Positions 56,210 through 62,580 of a stretch of DNA of 64,000 nt are shown here, piece after piece. The stretch is from NCBI GenBank assembly GCA_049968235.1, contig JBMFRC010000002.1, forward strand, positions 32,001-96,000, given 5' to 3'. A model generated the notes under the pieces. It was not told the DNA's origin, ran no database searches, and was given only the letters and a program-made list of their open reading frames with translations. The stretch is from Candidatus Hydrogenedens sp. GTDB lineage: Bacteria; Hydrogenedentota; Hydrogenedentia; Hydrogenedentales; Hydrogenedentaceae. The translations under genes and the position numbers were made by a program. How positions within the stretch are numbered: position 1 is the first letter of the stretch; every line of letters starts with the position of its first letter.

Positions 56210-59047
56210 ATGAATTTTATAGTCTTCATTCCGTTGCTACTTCATCTCCTTCATTTCCCACAAATAAACAATCCTTTTGAAAATGCACATTTAATCATAG
56301 ACCCACGTATGAAAGATGTTATCCCTAATAACAATTTCATGACGAACACAAAAAATGACTGGATAAAAGACAGTCCCCACCAGATACATACACTATTCAG
56401 AAAAATTTTTGTTGTTGAAAAATTTCCTAAATTGGCAGAGATATATATTACTGCAGATGACTATTTTAAACTCTATATAAATGGTGAACATATTTTAGAA
56501 GGTCCAACAAACGGTTATCCTTTTGCCTACCCTTATTTTAAGTTTAACCTGACCCCATTCATTAGGACAGGGACAAATATACTGGCTATTCACACATATT
56601 ACAGAGGGTTAATAAATCGTGTTTGTGTCAGTGGTGATAATCGTTCCGGGCTTATCTTGAAACTTATACTTACCGATATGGAGGGACGAAAAACAGAGAT
56701 TGTATCTGATACAACATGGAAATGCTTCCCTCTGGATGCATTTATTACGACTGACACTATAGGTTATAAAACACAATTCATTGAGAATATAGATATGCTA
56801 AAATACCCAAAAGACTGGCAATCCCTTGATTTCGATGATAGCCACTGGATAAACCCCGAATTAGGAAAAAGTGACTACACTTTTGTTGACTTACCTGCAA
56901 AACCATTAGAAATAAAAAATGTTTTCCCCAAAGAAAAGAAAAAAATTAATTCAGGACATTTCATTTTTGATTTCGGTCGCGAAGTCGTTGGATACACGAG
57001 AATAAAAACTAGGGGTGAAAGAGGACAAAAAATGATAGTTTATCATGGGGAAGAACTGGATGAAAACGGATATGTCCGCTGGCAAATGCGAGCATACTGT
57101 GATTACAAAGAAGAAATCATTTTATCCGGTGAAGAAGATATTTCTCCTTTCTATGAATACCGTGCCTTTCGATATATTGAATTGGATAATGCTCCCGAAG
57201 AAACCTCCGTATGGGTTGAAGAACGCCATTACCCATTTGACACCACAAAAGTTCTCTTTTATTCTTCAGATAAGGATTTAACAAATATATGGGATATTTG
57301 TCAATTGGGAGTTCGACTTTGCTCGCAAGAAGGCTTTTTGGATTGTCCTTCCCGTGAAAAAGGACAATATTTAGGAGATGCAGTTATTACATCTCGTTCC
57401 TTTATGTGGCTTACAGGAGATACTTCATTAACAAAAAAATCATTAATAGATTTTTCTCTTTCAACAAAAATAGATCCTGGTCTAACAGCGGTTGCACCTT
57501 CCGGGTTTATTCAAGAACTTGCCGAATACTCCCTTCAATATCCATTAATGCTATGGGAATACTATCGTCATTCCGGTGACAAAGATTTTCTAAAAGCAAT
57601 GGCAACAGAATGTTTACCATCACTCCTATACTATTTTGCACAGTTTGAAAATGAATCCGGCTTATTAAACTCTACCGGGAAAAAACCTATTTTGATTGAT
57701 TGGCCCAAAAACCTTCGTGATAATTTCGATTATGATTATGCCCAGAACAAACCTAATGCGGTCGTTAATGCTTTTTATTACGGAGCCGTTACAACAACAC
57801 TGGAAATACAAAAGACGCTCGGCATAGAAGACACTGCACTCAAAGAAAAAGCAGAAAAAATATGGAATGGCTATCAAAAAATCTTTCTGGACTCTGAAAA
57901 GAAACTTTATAAAGATGCTCCAAACTCGAAACATTATGCTCTGCATAGCAATGCTCTACCTCTCTACTTTGGATTGGTAAAAGATGAAAAAGTAAAAGAA
58001 AATATTTTCTCTTTAATTGAACAAAAAGGACTTTACTGTGGTGTTTATATCGCATCTTACATCATTGAAGCATGCTTCAAAGAAGGAAATCCCGAATTAG
58101 GATGGAAACTATTAACAAACAACACAGAATATTCATGGAAGGAAATGCTTCGCAATGGGGCTACTTCCTGCCTTGAAGTGTGGAAACCCGAAATGAAATC
58201 AAATATGAGTTGGTGTCATGCATGGAGTAGTTGCCCTATTTATCTCTTATCGGAATATGTATTAGGTCTAAAAATCGGCAAACCCGGCTGGGAAGAAATC
58301 CACTTCTCCCCAGCAAAAATAAACGATTTACCCGATATGTTTCTCATTAAACCCTTACCTGATGGAGGTTATTGCTCTGTGAATATAAAAAACAATAACT
58401 ATAACCTGACCGTTCCTGAGAATATTCATGTAATAACAGATGGTGTGCAGTGTGGAAATATTTCTGTTCATACTGTTTTATCTCACCAAAGTCCGACAGA
58501 ACTATCCGAAGAAGAAAAGACACTACTGAAAAATTATCAGTGGGACATAAAGACAGAAAACACTCGAGGAATTTGGGTTTCTATCAAAAAACAAAAATTA
58601 TATGTAATTGAAAAAAACAAAGTAGTATGGCAAACTCTTTGTTCCACTGGGATAAAAGGAATAGGTGAAAAATTAGGTTCCGAACAAACCCCCAGAGGGT
58701 GGCATCAAATTGTTGAAAAAATTGGTGACAATGCCCCATGGGGACAAATCTTTCGCAATCGTCAACCCGTAGGGATATGGGATAAAAGTCAGATTACAGA
58801 TGAATCCCTTGTCCTAACTCGAATACTGCGTCTTGATGGCTTGGAAGAAACAAAGAATAAAGGTATTAATAACGAAGGAGAAATTGTAGATTCGTATCAA
58901 CGATTCATTTACATTCATGGCACCAATAAAGAAGAACTTATAGGCACTCCTTTTACACGTGGTTGTATCGGTCTAACTAATAATGATGTGATTATGCTCT
59001 ACAACATTGTTCCCCTCAACACGAAAGTTCTTATTACAGAAGAATAA
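56210..59047 (+). CDS. Fusion protein: GH78-like alpha-L-rhamnosidase (six-hairpin glycosidase) region plus a C-terminal L,D-transpeptidase (YkuD) domain
   Basis: N-domain AEIYITADDYFKLYINGEHI matches the rhamnosidase N-terminal beta-sandwich. DCPSREKGQYLGDA matches the GH78 DCPxRE...GD block. The C-terminus from about 58550 carries the YkuD motif TPRGWH...IYIHGTNKEELIGTPFTRGCIGLTNNDVIMLYNIVPLNTKVLI. Confidence 0.65.
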   Translation: MNFIVFIPLLLHLLHFPQINNPFENAHLIIDPRMKDVIPNNNFMTNTKNDWIKDSPHQIHTLFRKIFVVEKFPKLAEIYITADDYFKLYINGEHILEGPTNGYPFAYPYFKFNLTPFIRTGTNILAIHTYYRGLINRVCVSGDNRSGLILKLILTDMEGRKTEIVSDTTWKCFPLDAFITTDTIGYKTQFIENIDMLKYPKDWQSLDFDDSHWINPELGKSDYTFVDLPAKPLEIKNVFPKEKKKINSGHFIFDFGREVVGYTRIKTRGERGQKMIVYHGEELDENGYVRWQMRAYCDYKEEIILSGEEDISPFYEYRAFRYIELDNAPEETSVWVEERHYPFDTTKVLFYSSDKDLTNIWDICQLGVRLCSQEGFLDCPSREKGQYLGDAVITSRSFMWLTGDTSLTKKSLIDFSLSTKIDPGLTAVAPSGFIQELAEYSLQYPLMLWEYYRHSGDKDFLKAMATECLPSLLYYFAQFENESGLLNSTGKKPILIDWPKNLRDNFDYDYAQNKPNAVVNAFYYGAVTTTLEIQKTLGIEDTALKEKAEKIWNGYQKIFLDSEKKLYKDAPNSKHYALHSNALPLYFGLVKDEKVKENIFSLIEQKGLYCGVYIASYIIEACFKEGNPELGWKLLTNNTEYSWKEMLRNGATSCLEVWKPEMKSNMSWCHAWSSCPIYLLSEYVLGLKIGKPGWEEIHFSPAKINDLPDMFLIKPLPDGGYCSVNIKNNNYNLTVPENIHVITDGVQCGNISVHTVLSHQSPTELSEEEKTLLKNYQWDIKTENTRGIWVSIKKQKLYVIEKNKVVWQTLCSTGIKGIGEKLGSEQTPRGWHQIVEKIGDNAPWGQIFRNRQPVGIWDKSQITDESLVLTRILRLDGLEETKNKGINNEGEIVDSYQRFIYIHGTNKEELIGTPFTRGCIGLTNNDVIMLYNIVPLNTKVLITEE

Positions 59048-59379: not shown

Positions 59380-59892
59380 ATGATAAGAACAAAATATTTC
59401 CTTTATTTCTTGATATTAATACTCCTGTTCAGTTCGTGTGCTCGACAAAGGCACAGAGTTACCTTTCAGTCTCCTTTTCAAGGTAGAGAACAGGAAACCT
59501 GGGGTTATCCCCTACCCGAAACATCTTTACAGATTACCTCTCCTTTTGGAGAAATTCGTAAAAAAAGAAACTTATCTTACTGGCATCAAGGAATTGACAT
59601 AAAAGCCAGGAAAGGAACTCCTGTGCTGGCAGTACAAAAAGGTATTGTAACTTTTGCCGGAAAGTCAAAAAACTATGGGTTATTGGTTTGTATAGAACAT
59701 TCAGGACTATGGGAATCCAGATATGCGCATCTCAACACTATTGAAGTGAAAAAAAATAAAAAAGTGAAGAAAGGAGAGGTCATCGGAAGAGTTGGAGAGA
59801 CCGGAAATGCAACGGGTCCCCACCTTCATTTTGAACTAAGGAAAAATGGAGTACCTGTTAATCCTGCTTCCTTGCTTCCAATAAAATACTGA
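59380..59892 (+). CDS. M23 family metallopeptidase (LytM domain) lipoprotein
   Basis: Lipobox LFSSC. HQGIDIKARKGTPV, YAHLNTIEV and GETGNATGPHLHFELR are the M23 His/Asp zinc motifs. Confidence 0.85.
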   Translation: MIRTKYFLYFLILILLFSSCARQRHRVTFQSPFQGREQETWGYPLPETSLQITSPFGEIRKKRNLSYWHQGIDIKARKGTPVLAVQKGIVTFAGKSKNYGLLVCIEHSGLWESRYAHLNTIEVKKNKKVKKGEVIGRVGETGNATGPHLHFELRKNGVPVNPASLLPIKY

Positions 59893-59893
59893 A

Positions 59894-62380
59894 TTATAAA
59901 AAGTCTCCATATAGTTCTTTTGCACATTGCGGACAAATTCCATGGCTAAATTCTGCTTCTGTATGCTGGCGAATATATACCTCCACCTCATGCCAGTAAC
60001 CTGTATCATCACGAATTCTCTTACAGCGTGCACATATCGGTAACAAACCATGAAGTTTTTTGACAGTATTCAATGCCTCCTGTAATTTTTCTACAGTCTC
60101 TTCTAACTCTTTTGTCTTTTGTAAGTTCTTTTTTTCCAATCGGATGCGTTCCAGAGCCTGAGCATACACAGAAGTTATCCACTCAATAGATTCCCAATGC
60201 GACGGGGTATAATTATCCTCTGAATTTACTGCTATGACGAAAACTAATTCATGAGAAGGGGTATAAGAAGGATAACATAATAATCTATTTACAGGAACTT
60301 TCCCAAAAAGTAAATGTTCTTTATCCTGAACATCATTTATAAGCAAAGGTATACCTGCCTCAATAAAACGGCGCAAAATTTTTTCTTTTTTAACCAATTC
60401 CTTCATATTGAAAGAGATTTCAAATTTATTTATTTTCTTTTTGTCTATACCATAAAAGAAATACATAGCCCTGTCAGAGTCAAAATATCCAGTAAAGCAA
60501 AATGCACTATTGAGTATATCTACACCTGTTTGACATACCATTTGCGTTAGTTCTCCTTCGTCTCGCAAATTCAAAAGCGAACGAGCAAACCCTGCATATA
60601 AAGAACTGATAACAACCTCATTTGCTAATTGTTTCTCTAATCTCTTTTTATCTGTAATGTCTATATGTGTTCCGGAAAAACGGATAGGATTCCCTTTTGA
60701 ATCTCTTGCCGAAACTCTTCCATAAGTATGTATCCATTGTTTATACATACCTCTATAGTAAATCTGATATTGGACATTAAAGACGCCGTCTTCTTTTGCA
60801 AGTGCTTCTCCCAATTCTTTTCGAATTAATTCTCTATGCACAGGAACAATACAATTGAACCAATCTTCTAATGTATAAAACTTCTTTGGGCTTATTCGAA
60901 ACATATCTAAAGCAGACTGATTCATTGTATATTCATTCTTCAAAATATCCCATGACCATAAACCGATACTTCCCAATTCTGAAGCAACACGGAGGTTTTC
61001 TTTTACATTTTTTAATTTCTCTTCCGATTCCATAAAAGCGGTTATATCCATTCCAATACCTACAAGTTTTTGGGCATATTTCCCCTGTCGCGAGATACAT
61101 TCCCCAATAGTGCGCACCCAAACCAATCTATCTCCGGGTAAAAGCAACCGATGGTCAACAGCAAAACTATTTGTTGCCCCATGAATACAAGGCTTGACTG
61201 CATGCCAAAAATTTACACGGTCTAAGGGATGTATATATTTCCACCACTCTGTTAATTCATCCGGAACCCTTAAATACGGGAATAAGGTTTGTAAACCAGA
61301 TGATATTATCTTTCGCGTATCTACTTCATATTCCCAAACACCAATATGCCCCGTCTTTAAGGAAATTTGATGAAGATTTAATAATGCCTTTTCTTGCCAG
61401 TATTGTTCCAAATAAGAAATGGTCCCTGTTAAAAAAGGTATTTTCTCTTCCAGATAACGGCAAATCTCTTCTGTATCTTTATTATCATTCCTATCTGCAA
61501 AAAGAAATAGCCATTTCCGCTGTCCCGCAGTATTTAATGGAAGGAAAATTAACGAACGATACCCCAATAAATGACACAGTCCACAATATTCTGTATCTTT
61601 AAAACAATGAACAAGTATCCGTGCTTTTTCCGGTGTTGCATTAAACCGCAAAAAGTCTTTATACCTAAGTTCGGATGGAATATAAATAGCACGACCTTCA
61701 AGAAAATCTTCACATACCCTTGTAATATTTTTATCGGAACAAAGTAATGAACAAAAATCTACTTCTTTATCATTCTTGAACACCTGTATATGATTTTTAC
61801 CTTCCTTCATCAATGCACATACTACTTTAAAATCAAATAGATTACTTAAACCAGATAACAACCGTGACATGCCTTCTTCCAACCGATATACACTATTATT
61901 AATCGTTAAACCTATTATAAATTCATCAAACAACTTATCAAATAAGTTTCGTAAATATCGACGATTTCTTAAAATATGATTCCGAATAATTCTCAAAGAA
62001 CAATTTAAGTGGCGGGTATTTTTTGACCCTAATGGCACACAATACACATTGTCTCTTGCTAATTGAGGCTCTATAATCTCCGGAATTTTAGAACTGACTG
62101 TAAAAAGAATAATGTTGTCATAATTATCTAAAATCCTCTTATAAGAACCCCACTTTGGTATATTTTCTATATAATCAAAAACCATCAATTCATAATTAAT
62201 TTCACCGTTTAATAAACGAGTTAAACTTTGAGTAGTAGCACAGTAATGCATCTTTACTTTCTGATCCCAAAATCTTTCATTTAAAAGAATCTTATCTCTC
62301 TCTTCTTGGGGTTGTCCTACCACTAATATATTCAGACAGGAAAAGGAAGGAAACTTATTTATTTTCTTTTCAGATAACAT
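59894..62380 (-). CDS. Multi-sensor signalling protein: Asp-less receiver-like N-domain, GAF and two PAS domains, coiled coil, and a C-terminal Cys/His-rich putative zinc-binding module
   Basis: The PAS-like segments are GVWEYEVDTRKIISS... and GLWSWDILKNEYTMNQ.... The C-terminus reads LPICARCKRIRDDTGYWHEVEVYIRQHTEAEFSHGICPQCAKELYGD, with the spacing CxxC...H...HGxCPxC. There are no HisKA, GGDEF or EAL motifs. Confidence 0.6.
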   Translation of the reverse strand: MLSEKKINKFPSFSCLNILVVGQPQEERDKILLNERFWDQKVKMHYCATTQSLTRLLNGEINYELMVFDYIENIPKWGSYKRILDNYDNIILFTVSSKIPEIIEPQLARDNVYCVPLGSKNTRHLNCSLRIIRNHILRNRRYLRNLFDKLFDEFIIGLTINNSVYRLEEGMSRLLSGLSNLFDFKVVCALMKEGKNHIQVFKNDKEVDFCSLLCSDKNITRVCEDFLEGRAIYIPSELRYKDFLRFNATPEKARILVHCFKDTEYCGLCHLLGYRSLIFLPLNTAGQRKWLFLFADRNDNKDTEEICRYLEEKIPFLTGTISYLEQYWQEKALLNLHQISLKTGHIGVWEYEVDTRKIISSGLQTLFPYLRVPDELTEWWKYIHPLDRVNFWHAVKPCIHGATNSFAVDHRLLLPGDRLVWVRTIGECISRQGKYAQKLVGIGMDITAFMESEEKLKNVKENLRVASELGSIGLWSWDILKNEYTMNQSALDMFRISPKKFYTLEDWFNCIVPVHRELIRKELGEALAKEDGVFNVQYQIYYRGMYKQWIHTYGRVSARDSKGNPIRFSGTHIDITDKKRLEKQLANEVVISSLYAGFARSLLNLRDEGELTQMVCQTGVDILNSAFCFTGYFDSDRAMYFFYGIDKKKINKFEISFNMKELVKKEKILRRFIEAGIPLLINDVQDKEHLLFGKVPVNRLLCYPSYTPSHELVFVIAVNSEDNYTPSHWESIEWITSVYAQALERIRLEKKNLQKTKELEETVEKLQEALNTVKKLHGLLPICARCKRIRDDTGYWHEVEVYIRQHTEAEFSHGICPQCAKELYGDFL

Positions 62381-62580
62381 TATTTTTTACCCATGTCCGA
62401 ACATACCTGATAATTCCCGAAAATTTCAATTATATATATTATCTACACTTATAGTACAATACAAAATAAAATAAAATCAAAAAAAAATAATAATTATATC
62501 TCGTATTATTATAATAAAAATTAATACAAAACAACCCCTTTAATTATTTTTAAATATTATATTTTTTATTATATCGAAAA

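What the first reader, a model, noticed from the sequence alone, without database searches (positions are those of the whole stretch)
59894..62380. Multi-sensor protein with a Cys/His-rich C-terminal module in place of a conventional output domain
The 828-aa protein has an N-terminal receiver-like fold with no obvious phospho-Asp, a GAF-like region, two PAS domains, a second GAF-like region, a coiled coil, and the C-terminal sequence LPICARCKRIRDDTGYWHEVEVYIRQHTEAEFSHGICPQCAKELYGD. The CxxC...H...H-G-x-C-P-x-C spacing suggests a zinc-ribbon-like output, either DNA or RNA binding or a protein-interaction module. I could not identify HisKA, HATPase, GGDEF, EAL or HD-GYP motifs. A very AT-rich 200-bp region lies upstream.
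Basis: partly seen in the sequence, partly recalled or inferred. Interest (0 to 1): 0.55.

Follow-up and report, generated by a model that had tools for sequence, protein, structure and literature searches.

The report
Unnamed Cys4 output module on sensor
A bacterial multi-sensor protein ends not in a kinase or cyclase but in a 50-residue, four-cysteine module that thousands of other bacterial sensor proteins and response regulators share, and that the domain libraries, solved structures and papers I could search do not describe.

Summary
Window 59894-62380 (-) encodes an 828-aa cytoplasmic protein of Candidatus Hydrogenedens. It has a degenerate receiver-like domain, a Cys-rich GAF-like domain, two PAS domains, a GAF domain, a heptad coiled coil and the quoted Cys/His tail. 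No kinase, cyclase or phosphodiesterase domain is detectable.

The tail is not a curiosity of this protein. A 50-column profile finds 23,739 protein clusters (19,286 at E<=1e-10) across at least 15 bacterial phyla. The module almost always lies within 25 residues of the C-terminus. It always follows a fixed-register coiled-coil neck and always sits behind input domains (PAS, GAF, REC, MASE6, Cache/HAMP).

REC-neck-module proteins sit directly downstream of histidine kinases, so the module occupies the output position. All four Cys are invariant and the two His are replaceable. Net charge is about -0.8. About a fifth of the carriers are membrane proteins. No neighbouring partner gene is conserved.

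Best reading: a Cys4 metal (probably Zn) knuckle domain that works as a coiled-coil-coupled pair and binds an unlinked, conserved partner. The fold, the metal and the partner are inferred, not shown. DNA binding is disfavoured.

The parts
59894..62380 (-). Whole ORF, 828 aa plus stop codon: cytoplasmic multi-sensor signalling protein of Candidatus Hydrogenedens
   Evidence: ORF list. P0036, 100% identical, is annotated 'PAS domain-containing protein, Candidatus Hydrogenedens sp.', and there are 12 full-length orthologues at 43-81% identity.
62021..62338 (-). Residues 15-120: degenerate receiver-like (pseudo-REC) domain. D69 is at the end of beta3, but there is no acidic pair after beta1 and no conserved Lys after beta5
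   Evidence: AF2 model with pLDDT around 90 here. Foldseek match to the REC+GAF of 6OAP/6OAQ. No Pfam Response_reg hit. Column conservation.
61481..61888 (-). Residues 165-300: GAF-like domain with four invariant Cys (C210, C223, C266, C269) and H270
   Evidence: AF2 and Foldseek GAF matches to 3P01, 3K2N, 3O5Y and PDE GAFs. Invariant columns. No Pfam or PDB sequence hit.
61571..61585 (-). C266-G-L-C269-H270 motif (CxxCH) in the GAF-like domain: candidate cofactor or metal site
   Evidence: Invariant or near-invariant in 13 orthologues. The preceding loop 262-266 has pLDDT below 50.
61001..61348 (-). Residues about 345-460: PAS domain A
   Evidence: Second stretch of Pfam PAS_3. PDB 3MR0 aligns to 338-464.
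60617..60988 (-). Residues about 465-588: PAS domain B, ending in HIDITDKK (the usual DIT motif)
   Evidence: Pfam PAS_3 at 485-572 and PAS_4. FixL 8JS5 aligns to 461-586.
60149..60562 (-). Residues 607-744: GAF domain
   Evidence: Pfam GAF_2, E 1.6e-7, 32.0 bits against a cutoff of 28.6.
60053..60148 (-). Residues 745-776: heptad coiled-coil 'neck' of fixed length that joins the last sensor domain to the module
   Evidence: Conserved hydrophobic positions at -15/-14, -11, -8/-7, -4 and -1, gapless across 210 family members. Invariant L748, L759, L766, V773 and L776 in the orthologues.
59897..60052 (-). Residues 777-828: Cys4 module HGLLPIC783ARC786KRIRDDTGYW796...H806...H813GIC816PQC819AKELYGDFL, the unnamed output module
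   Evidence: Profile hit of 108 bits. 23,739 clusters in the exhaustive search. The four Cys and the Trp are invariant in 209/209. AF2 gives a knuckle hairpin, helix, strand, helix (pLDDT 72).
62381..62580 (-). AT-rich intergenic region upstream of the ORF: probable promoter region, with a TATAAT-like element shared with the 72%-identical orthologous locus
   Evidence: GC 16.5-25%. Sequence. Partial conservation with L081. No Rfam match. Promoter-like sites are no more frequent than in shuffled sequence.

Best explanation
The gene encodes a soluble, probably dimeric, multi-input signalling protein: pseudo-receiver, Cys-rich GAF-like domain, two PAS domains and a GAF domain. Its only candidate output is a roughly 80-residue C-terminal unit made of a parallel coiled-coil neck and a 45-50-residue Cys4 metal-binding knuckle domain, most likely binding Zn.

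This unit belongs to a very large, cross-phylum domain family that has no name. In that family it takes the place that DHp/kinase, GGDEF or HTH domains take in other one- and two-component proteins.

Proposed mechanism. Ligand or phosphorylation-driven changes in the sensor domains are passed as a register or rotation change down the fixed-length coiled coil. This changes the mutual arrangement of the two metal-knuckle domains. The change makes or breaks a binding surface for a conserved cellular partner that is encoded elsewhere in the genome. Many different sensors in one cell would then converge on the same target, much as chemoreceptor tips converge on CheA/CheW.

Shown here: the domain anatomy, family size, C-terminal position, exclusive association with input domains, the kinase-to-REC-module operons, the invariant Cys4, the fixed heptad neck and the lack of a linked partner gene.

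Inferred: metal binding and its identity, dimeric action, protein rather than nucleic-acid partner, and convergence on a hub.
For: 1. The exhaustive profile search found 23,739 50%-identity clusters at E<=1e-3 and 19,286 at E<=1e-10.
2. At least 595 loci were found in species-representative genomes. They come from Desulfobacterota, Chloroflexota, Nitrospirota, Nitrospinota, Acidobacteriota, Spirochaetota, Calditrichota, Bacteroidota, Planctomycetota, Verrucomicrobiota, Gemmatimonadota, Elusimicrobiota, Zixibacteria, Hydrogenedentota, Poribacteria and Chromatiaceae.
3. The module ends within about 1-25 residues of the C-terminus in nearly all members.
4. Among 106 diverse members the co-resident Pfam domains are PAS (53), MASE6 (19), REC (13), GAF, Cache, HAMP, PocR, MASE1 and 7TM. 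No HisKA/HATPase, GGDEF, EAL or HTH family is among the 25 most frequent.
5. REC-neck-module proteins of about 210 aa lie immediately downstream of HWE/HisKA_2 or HisKA histidine kinases (L022, L024, L040, L035). In two-component operons the module is therefore the response regulator's effector part.
6. The neck is gapless and heptad-patterned, and the PAS 'DITERK' end sits at a fixed distance from the module.
7. Single-chain tandem duplications of the whole unit occur with three different inputs: [MASE6-neck-module]x2, [REC-neck-module]x2 and [TM-neck-module]x2. This fits a unit that functions as a pair.
8. The four Cys and W796 are 209/209 invariant. The His are 89-92% conserved and are replaced by non-ligand residues.
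9. AF2 places C783/C786 on a beta-hairpin knuckle and C816/C819 at the N-terminus of the last helix. That is the layout of treble-clef zinc sites (established structural knowledge).
10. About 28 of 50 positions carry more than 3 bits of information across phyla, which suggests a constrained surface.
11. No recurrent neighbour other than kinases appears in 70 loci.
Against: No experiment or solved structure exists for any member. The metal, the oligomeric state and the partner are all unproven.

The conservation figures come from the best-scoring 150 clusters and 80 loci, so they overstate the conservation of the whole family.

The very high conservation could reflect the demands of a tiny metal-held fold, or recent horizontal spread, rather than a partner surface.

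One member carries a winged-helix-like tail after the module and one carries a REC after it. In some proteins the module may therefore act as a transmitter or dimeriser rather than the final effector.

Profile-profile (HHpred-type) comparison with Pfam and PDB profiles could not be run.
Confidence: 0.5

Rival explanations
1. The module is a dimeric Cys4 zinc-finger DNA- (or RNA-) binding domain. These proteins would then be one-component transcription factors or response regulators of a new DNA-binding class, analogous to PAS-GATA proteins such as fungal White Collar-1.
For: The Cys4 knuckle-plus-helix layout is that of treble-clef DNA-binding fingers (general knowledge). A conserved basic triplet K787-(K/R)788-x-R790 and a K/K pair after the last Cys are present. 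A coiled-coil dimer upstream would suit palindromic sites. Most response-regulator outputs are DNA-binding (general knowledge). Galperin et al. predicted DNA/RNA binding for HalOD2, a haloarchaeal REC output with two CXXC motifs (PMC5847659).
Against: Mean net charge of the module is -0.8, most commonly 0 or -1, with invariant D791/D792/E800 next to the basic residues. About 20-25% of the sampled carriers are integral membrane proteins (MASE6, MASE1, 7TM, Cache/HAMP, small TM). One member adds a separate winged-helix-like tail after the module, which would be redundant if the module bound DNA. No Pfam DNA-binding zinc-finger model matches even at E<=10.
Confidence: 0.2
2. The module is an additional input rather than an output. 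It would be a thiol/zinc redox switch or a rubredoxin-like Fe(Cys)4 centre that senses oxidants or metal availability. Output would occur through some other, unrecognised surface of the proteins.
For: Two CxxC pairs, one of them CPxC, with the same 29-residue spacing as rubredoxin (sequence; general knowledge). Zinc-thiolate switches such as RsrA and Hsp33 are established redox sensors. Many carriers come from anaerobes or microaerophiles (Desulfobacterota, Nitrospirota, Anaerolineae).
Against: REC-neck-module proteins would then have no effector at all, yet they sit in kinase-regulator operons. The module is the only element common to all carriers and is always C-terminal after a transmitter helix. 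hhalign against rubredoxin gives probability 2%, aligning only the CPxC knuckle. Pfam Rubredoxin does not match. AF2 predicts a helix between the knuckles, which rubredoxin lacks.
Confidence: 0.12
3. The module has no signalling target of its own. It would be a metal-stapled cap that stabilises or clamps the C-terminal end of the coiled-coil dimer, or a localisation or degradation tag. The proteins would then act as sensor-only scaffolds or as phosphate sinks.
For: The domain is very small. It always follows a coiled coil. Tandem single-chain duplications fit a dimerisation role. In rare proteins further domains follow it (REC, winged-helix-like). No partner gene is linked.
Against: A mere cap would not be expected to keep about 28 of 50 positions, including many charged surface-type residues, nearly invariant across more than 15 phyla. 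It would also not be expected to be the sole non-sensor element in tens of thousands of protein clusters.
Confidence: 0.12

Closest known systems
HalOD2, a predicted Zn-finger output domain of haloarchaeal response regulators (Galperin et al. 2018, PMC5847659)
   Same: A short C-terminal output region of REC proteins with a helical N-terminal part followed by two highly conserved CXXC motifs. It is predicted to be a zinc finger and its function is unknown.
   Different: HalOD2 is reported only from a few halobacteria, with 20-25 residues between the CXXC motifs. Here the spacing is 29, the family is bacterial, spans more than 15 phyla, and is mostly attached to PAS, GAF or membrane sensors. 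Homology between the two was not tested because no HalOD2 sequences were available to the tools.
PAS-GATA zinc-finger photoreceptors/transcription factors (fungal White Collar-1/2)
   Same: PAS sensor domains followed by a C-terminal Cys4 treble-clef-type zinc finger as the only output (own knowledge).
   Different: These are eukaryotic, with CX2CX17-18CX2C spacing and a basic tail that binds DNA. The present module has 29-residue spacing with an inserted helix and is neutral to acidic. No GATA family appeared in the Pfam scan at E<=10.
Treble-clef and zinc-ribbon Cys4 modules joined to coiled coils or dimers (DksA/TraR C4 finger, ClpX N-terminal zinc-binding domain)
   Same: A small Cys4 site formed by a knuckle hairpin plus the N-terminus of a helix. 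They act as protein-protein interaction modules, and the ClpX domain is dimeric (own knowledge; layout).
   Different: No sequence or fold match was found. DksA's coiled coil is an antiparallel hairpin, not a parallel dimer neck. None of these is an output of PAS/GAF/REC sensors.
Chemoreceptor (MCP) signalling tip, and RsbR-type STAS outputs
   Same: As proposed here by analogy only: many sensors carry variable inputs and one highly conserved output element, reached through a coiled coil, that docks onto a shared partner encoded elsewhere. Direct evidence for several carriers in one genome is limited to three assemblies that each appear twice among the 80 loci.
   Different: The folds are unrelated, and there is no evidence yet that a hub exists for this module.
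Dual-sensor histidine kinase REC + cyanobacteriochrome GAF (PDB 6OAP/6OAQ/6OB8)
   Same: Best structural match for the N-terminal 345 residues: a receiver domain joined by a long helix to a GAF domain.
   Different: Sequence identity is 12-14%. The receiver here is degenerate, there is no kinase core, and the cofactor (if any) of the Cys-rich GAF-like domain is unknown.

Membership tests
Unnamed C-terminal Cys4 module family (LPICxxCKxIRDDxGxW...HGxCPxC) | Profile match over all 50 columns, including the four Cys and the Trp | tested here: met
   108 bits, E 7e-33, hmm positions 1-50. 60-86% identity to members from other phyla.
Unnamed C-terminal Cys4 module family (LPICxxCKxIRDDxGxW...HGxCPxC) | Position at the extreme C-terminus behind a gapless heptad neck | tested here: met
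   The module ends 2 residues before the stop codon. L776, V773, A769/L770, L766 and L759 follow the family pattern.
Unnamed C-terminal Cys4 module family (LPICxxCKxIRDDxGxW...HGxCPxC) | Carrier contains only input or transmitter domains | tested here: met
   Only PAS_3 and GAF_2 plus a pseudo-REC and a GAF-like fold.
Unnamed C-terminal Cys4 module family (LPICxxCKxIRDDxGxW...HGxCPxC) | Binds one metal ion through four Cys | not testable with these tools
   Inferred from invariant Cys and knuckle/helix placement. Needs metal analysis.
Response regulator receiver domain (REC, PF00072) | (beta-alpha)5 fold | tested here: met
   AF2 strands at 15-21, 41-47, 65-69, 90-95 and 112-116 with alternating helices. 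Foldseek match to the REC of 6OAQ.
Response regulator receiver domain (REC, PF00072) | Profile HMM match | tested here: not met
   No Pfam hit for residues 1-343 at E<=10. No PDB sequence hit with the orthologue profile.
Response regulator receiver domain (REC, PF00072) | Phospho-acceptor Asp at the end of beta3 | tested here: met
   D69 is present in 12 of 13 orthologues, Glu in one, and lies at the end of strand 65-69.
Response regulator receiver domain (REC, PF00072) | Mg-binding acidic pair after beta1, and conserved Thr/Ser (beta4) and Lys (beta5) | tested here: not met
   G22-Q23 replace the acidic pair. The residue after beta4 varies (S/P/V/N/K/R). P116-L117 follow beta5, and K120 is not conserved.
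GAF domain | Pfam GAF-family match above the gathering score | tested here: met
   Residues 607-744: GAF_2 at 32.0 bits against 28.6. The N-terminal GAF-like region 165-300 is met by fold only, not by HMM.
PAS domain | Pfam PAS-family match above the gathering score | tested here: met
   PAS_3 at 57.6 bits against 25.6, two stretches.
Histidine kinase | HisKA/DHp with H-box plus HATPase_c | tested here: not met
   No such Pfam or NCBIfam stretch at E<=1. NCBIfam kinase and cyclase hits cover only the PAS region 378-597.
c-di-GMP enzymes (GGDEF, EAL, HD-GYP) | Catalytic domain match | tested here: not met
   None in Pfam. The NCBIfam 'diguanylate cyclase PRK09776' hit (88 bits against a cutoff of 1135) covers only PAS residues 452-588.
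Rubredoxin | Profile or sequence similarity beyond the CxxC/CPxC knuckles | tested here: not met
   hhalign probability 2%, 6 aligned columns. No Pfam Rubredoxin hit.
Characterised zinc-finger or zinc-ribbon families (Pfam zf-*/Zn_ribbon*, DksA/TraR, GATA, ZAS) | HMM or structural match | tested here: not met

The most novel reading that the evidence does not exclude
The neck-plus-Cys4 module defines a previously unrecognised, widespread bacterial signalling output. Different PAS, GAF, membrane and REC sensors of one cell would use it to converge on a single conserved, unlinked hub protein or machine. That would make it a new signalling pathway class alongside phosphorelay, c-di-GMP and chemotaxis-type arrays.
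Probability: 0.3. Interest if true: 0.85.

Novelty: new variant of a known kind. Interest (0 to 1): 0.62.

Why it matters
Bacterial signal-transduction censuses classify proteins by their output domains. Proteins that carry only this module are currently annotated just as 'PAS domain-containing protein', 'response regulator', 'sensor with HAMP domain protein' or 'hypothetical', so their outputs go uncounted.

A family of more than 19,000 50%-identity clusters in at least 15 phyla is involved. It includes environmentally important Desulfobacterota, Nitrospirota, Anaerolineae and Spirochaetota. Much sensory wiring in these organisms therefore ends in an unknown step.

Defining the module makes the question testable: which metal it holds, what it binds, and whether many sensors share one target. 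It also gives a ready profile for annotation.

For this particular protein it also flags a second unexplained feature, the four-Cys/CxxCH site in the N-terminal GAF-like domain.

Tried and rejected
- Pfam and NCBIfam scans of the whole protein, of the tail alone and of 106 + 9 family members found no model covering the module.
- PDB sequence searches with the protein, the module profile and the N-terminal profile gave only PAS hits. Module hits were noise (E>=0.28), and the N-terminal profile gave none.
- The rubredoxin relationship suggested by the identical 29-residue spacing was rejected by hhalign.
- Eight literature searches found no paper describing the module. They used motif strings (CKKIRD, FSHGICP, LPICAS and others), 'MASE6', and phrases about zinc or cysteine-rich output domains. 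The only related text is HalOD2/TackOD1 in PMC5847659. The first search was wasted on the term 'GYW'.
- The search for a conserved neighbouring partner gene in 70 loci found only histidine kinases upstream of REC-module genes.
- 'Stand-alone' 55-90-aa module proteins were examined as possible mini-effectors. They lie directly behind PAS or 7TM ORFs on the same strand, so they are split genes.
- Source names of cluster members were uninformative.
- The only plasmid hit (Dongshaea marina) is an IS-disrupted remnant.
- The upstream AT-rich region has no Rfam family, and promoter-like sites are no more frequent than in shuffled sequence.
- There is only one copy of the module in the 64-kb window.
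Full report
**What is there.**
The ORF at window 59894..62380 on the minus strand is real. It has 828 codons from an ATG and ends in the quoted sequence. A 100%-identical partial protein is annotated 'PAS domain-containing protein, Candidatus Hydrogenedens sp.'. Twelve full-length orthologues (43-81% identity), two of them annotated as Hydrogenedens/Hydrogenedentes, were recovered and aligned.

**Domain anatomy.**
- Pfam finds two PAS_3 stretches and a GAF_2 domain at 607-744. It finds nothing for residues 1-343 or for the last 80 residues.
- NCBIfam hits to kinases, cyclases and phosphodiesterases cover only the PAS region and lie far below their cutoffs.
- An AF2 model of residues 1-345, built on the orthologue alignment, is confident (pLDDT 83.5, pTM 0.80). 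It shows a (beta-alpha)5 receiver-like domain, a long helix and a GAF-like domain.
- The best PDB neighbour of that model is the REC+GAF part of a dual-sensor histidine kinase, 6OAP/6OAQ/6OB8 (E about 1e-7, TM about 0.6). Other GAF domains follow.
- The receiver is degenerate. D69 sits at the phospho-acceptor position in 12 of 13 orthologues, but the acidic pair after beta1 and the conserved Lys after beta5 are missing.
- The GAF-like domain has four invariant Cys (C210, C223, C266, C269) and a CGLCH motif in a low-confidence loop.

The gene lies behind a 200-bp AT-rich intergenic region (GC down to 16.5%). That region has no Rfam match and only ordinary promoter-like features.

**The tail is a member of a very large family.**
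- A first search with the last 59 residues returned 35 close relatives, 54-83% identical, from unrelated metagenomes.
- A trimmed 50-column alignment (A2) was used for an exhaustive HMMER search of 1.84 billion representative proteins. It found 23,739 clusters at E<=1e-3 and 19,286 at E<=1e-10.
595 loci were confirmed, from at least 15 phyla.
- In 70 loci with called ORFs, and in 210 sampled modules, the module ends within about 25 residues of the C-terminus. The exceptions are tandem-duplicated proteins.
- The window holds a single copy.

**What the module is attached to.**
- A Pfam scan of 106 diverse carriers found PAS families in about half, MASE6 in 19 and REC in 13. GAF, Cache, HAMP, PocR, MASE1 and 7TM regions also occur.
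- No kinase, cyclase, phosphodiesterase or HTH family is among the 25 most frequent.
- The only recurrent neighbour in 70 loci is a histidine kinase lying directly upstream, on the same strand, of REC-neck-module genes of about 210 aa.
- The module therefore stands where a response regulator's effector domain stands, and where a one-component sensor's output stands.
- Rare variants add a REC domain or a winged-helix-like tail after the module.
- Whole [input-neck-module] units are found duplicated in a single chain with three different inputs. This fits a unit that acts as a pair.
- Apparent stand-alone mini-proteins are split genes.

**Anatomy of the module.**
- The 25-30 residues before it are gapless across the family. 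Hydrophobic positions at -15/-14, -11, -8/-7, -4 and -1 follow a 4-3-4-3 heptad pattern.
- In PAS-linked members the DITERK end of PAS sits at a fixed distance from the module.
- The four Cys and the Trp are invariant in 209 of 209 sampled members. K787, R790, D792, G794, E800 and Y802 are more than 95% conserved.
- The two His are 89-92% conserved and are replaced by N, R, Q, S or E. The metal site is therefore Cys4, with the His in some other role.
- AF2 (pLDDT 72) places the first CxxC on a beta-hairpin knuckle and the CPxC at the start of the final helix, with an extra helix between them. This is the layout of treble-clef Cys4 zinc sites (established structural knowledge).
- Mean net charge is -0.8.
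- The conservation figures come from the best-scoring members, so they overstate the conservation of the whole family.

**Comparison with what is known.**
- No Pfam-A or NCBIfam model covers the module.
- No PDB sequence matches, and no solved fold matches.
- Rubredoxin, which shares the 29-residue spacing, is unrelated by hhalign.
- Eight text searches of 8 million papers found no description.
- The nearest published concept is HalOD2, a haloarchaeal REC output with two CXXC motifs 20-25 residues apart, predicted to be a Zn finger of unknown function (PMC5847659). Homology to it could not be tested.
- Public annotations name carriers only after their sensor domains.

**Mechanism.**
The best-supported reading is a Cys4 metal-stapled domain, probably holding Zn, that acts as a pair at the end of a parallel coiled coil. 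Its arrangement would be set by the sensor domains through the fixed-register neck, and it would bind a conserved partner encoded elsewhere.

A protein partner is favoured over nucleic acid for three reasons:
- The module is neutral to acidic.
- About a fifth of the carriers are membrane proteins.
- One member carries its own winged-helix-like domain.

These arguments are indirect. Three rivals remain open: DNA/RNA binding (0.2), a redox or metal input (0.12), and a mere dimer cap or tag (0.12).

**Verdict.**
The protein itself is one more member of an existing, though unnamed, family. The family is an undescribed type of output domain for one- and two-component signalling, so I rate it a new variant of a known kind. 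Interest is moderately high because of its size and spread. It is tempered by the lack of any functional evidence and by the possibility that a description exists outside the libraries I could search.

Noticed in passing
window 61571-61585 (-), with C210 (about 61751-61753) and C223 (about 61712-61714): The N-terminal GAF-like domain has four invariant Cys and a CGLCH (CxxCH) motif, preceded by a low-confidence loop. This may be a metal, Fe-S, haem or bilin-type cofactor site. The best fold match of this region is a REC+cyanobacteriochrome-GAF kinase.
   Followed up: partly
window 56210-59047 (+): A 945-aa protein fuses a complete alpha-L-rhamnosidase (N, concanavalin-like and six-hairpin domains) to a C-terminal YkuD L,D-transpeptidase domain. 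This is an unusual combination of a glycosidase and a cell-wall cross-linking enzyme.
   Followed up: no
window 59380-59892 (+), and L081:10486-10998, L082:2971-3495, L088:6490-6996: A 170-aa M23 peptidase gene converges on the sensor gene with a gap of 1 nt, and overlaps it by 4 nt in L082. The convergent pair, together with an upstream AP_endonuc_2 (xylose-isomerase-like) gene, is kept in orthologous loci down to 45% protein identity. It is not evident in L087.
   Followed up: partly
P0101, P0093, P0091/P0092, P0100: Single-chain tandem duplications occur: [MASE6-neck-module]x2, [REC-neck-module]x2 and [small TM-neck-module]x2. One REC protein has two modules back to back.
   Followed up: partly
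L083:3375-5258, L084:3407-5189, L085:3967-5222: Database 'proteins' of 55-90 aa that consist only of the module lie behind PAS or 7TM-PAS ORFs on the same strand: a 12-nt gap in L083, a 4-nt overlap in L085, and about 530 nt with a small opposite-strand ORF between them in L084. They are probably frameshift-split genes in long-read assemblies.
   Followed up: yes
L023:5539-6345 and P0178: Rare architectures exist in which the module is not terminal: REC-neck-module followed by a 65-aa winged-helix-like tail (sub-threshold HTH_IclR/HTH_24/TrmB hits), and REC-neck-module-REC.
   Followed up: partly
L086 (Dongshaea marina plasmid NZ_CP028898.1, 36172-36303): A divergent module remnant (54% identity) lies between IS21 and IS91 transposase genes, downstream of a GAF-domain gene. 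It appears to be a sensor gene disrupted by insertion sequences.
   Followed up: no
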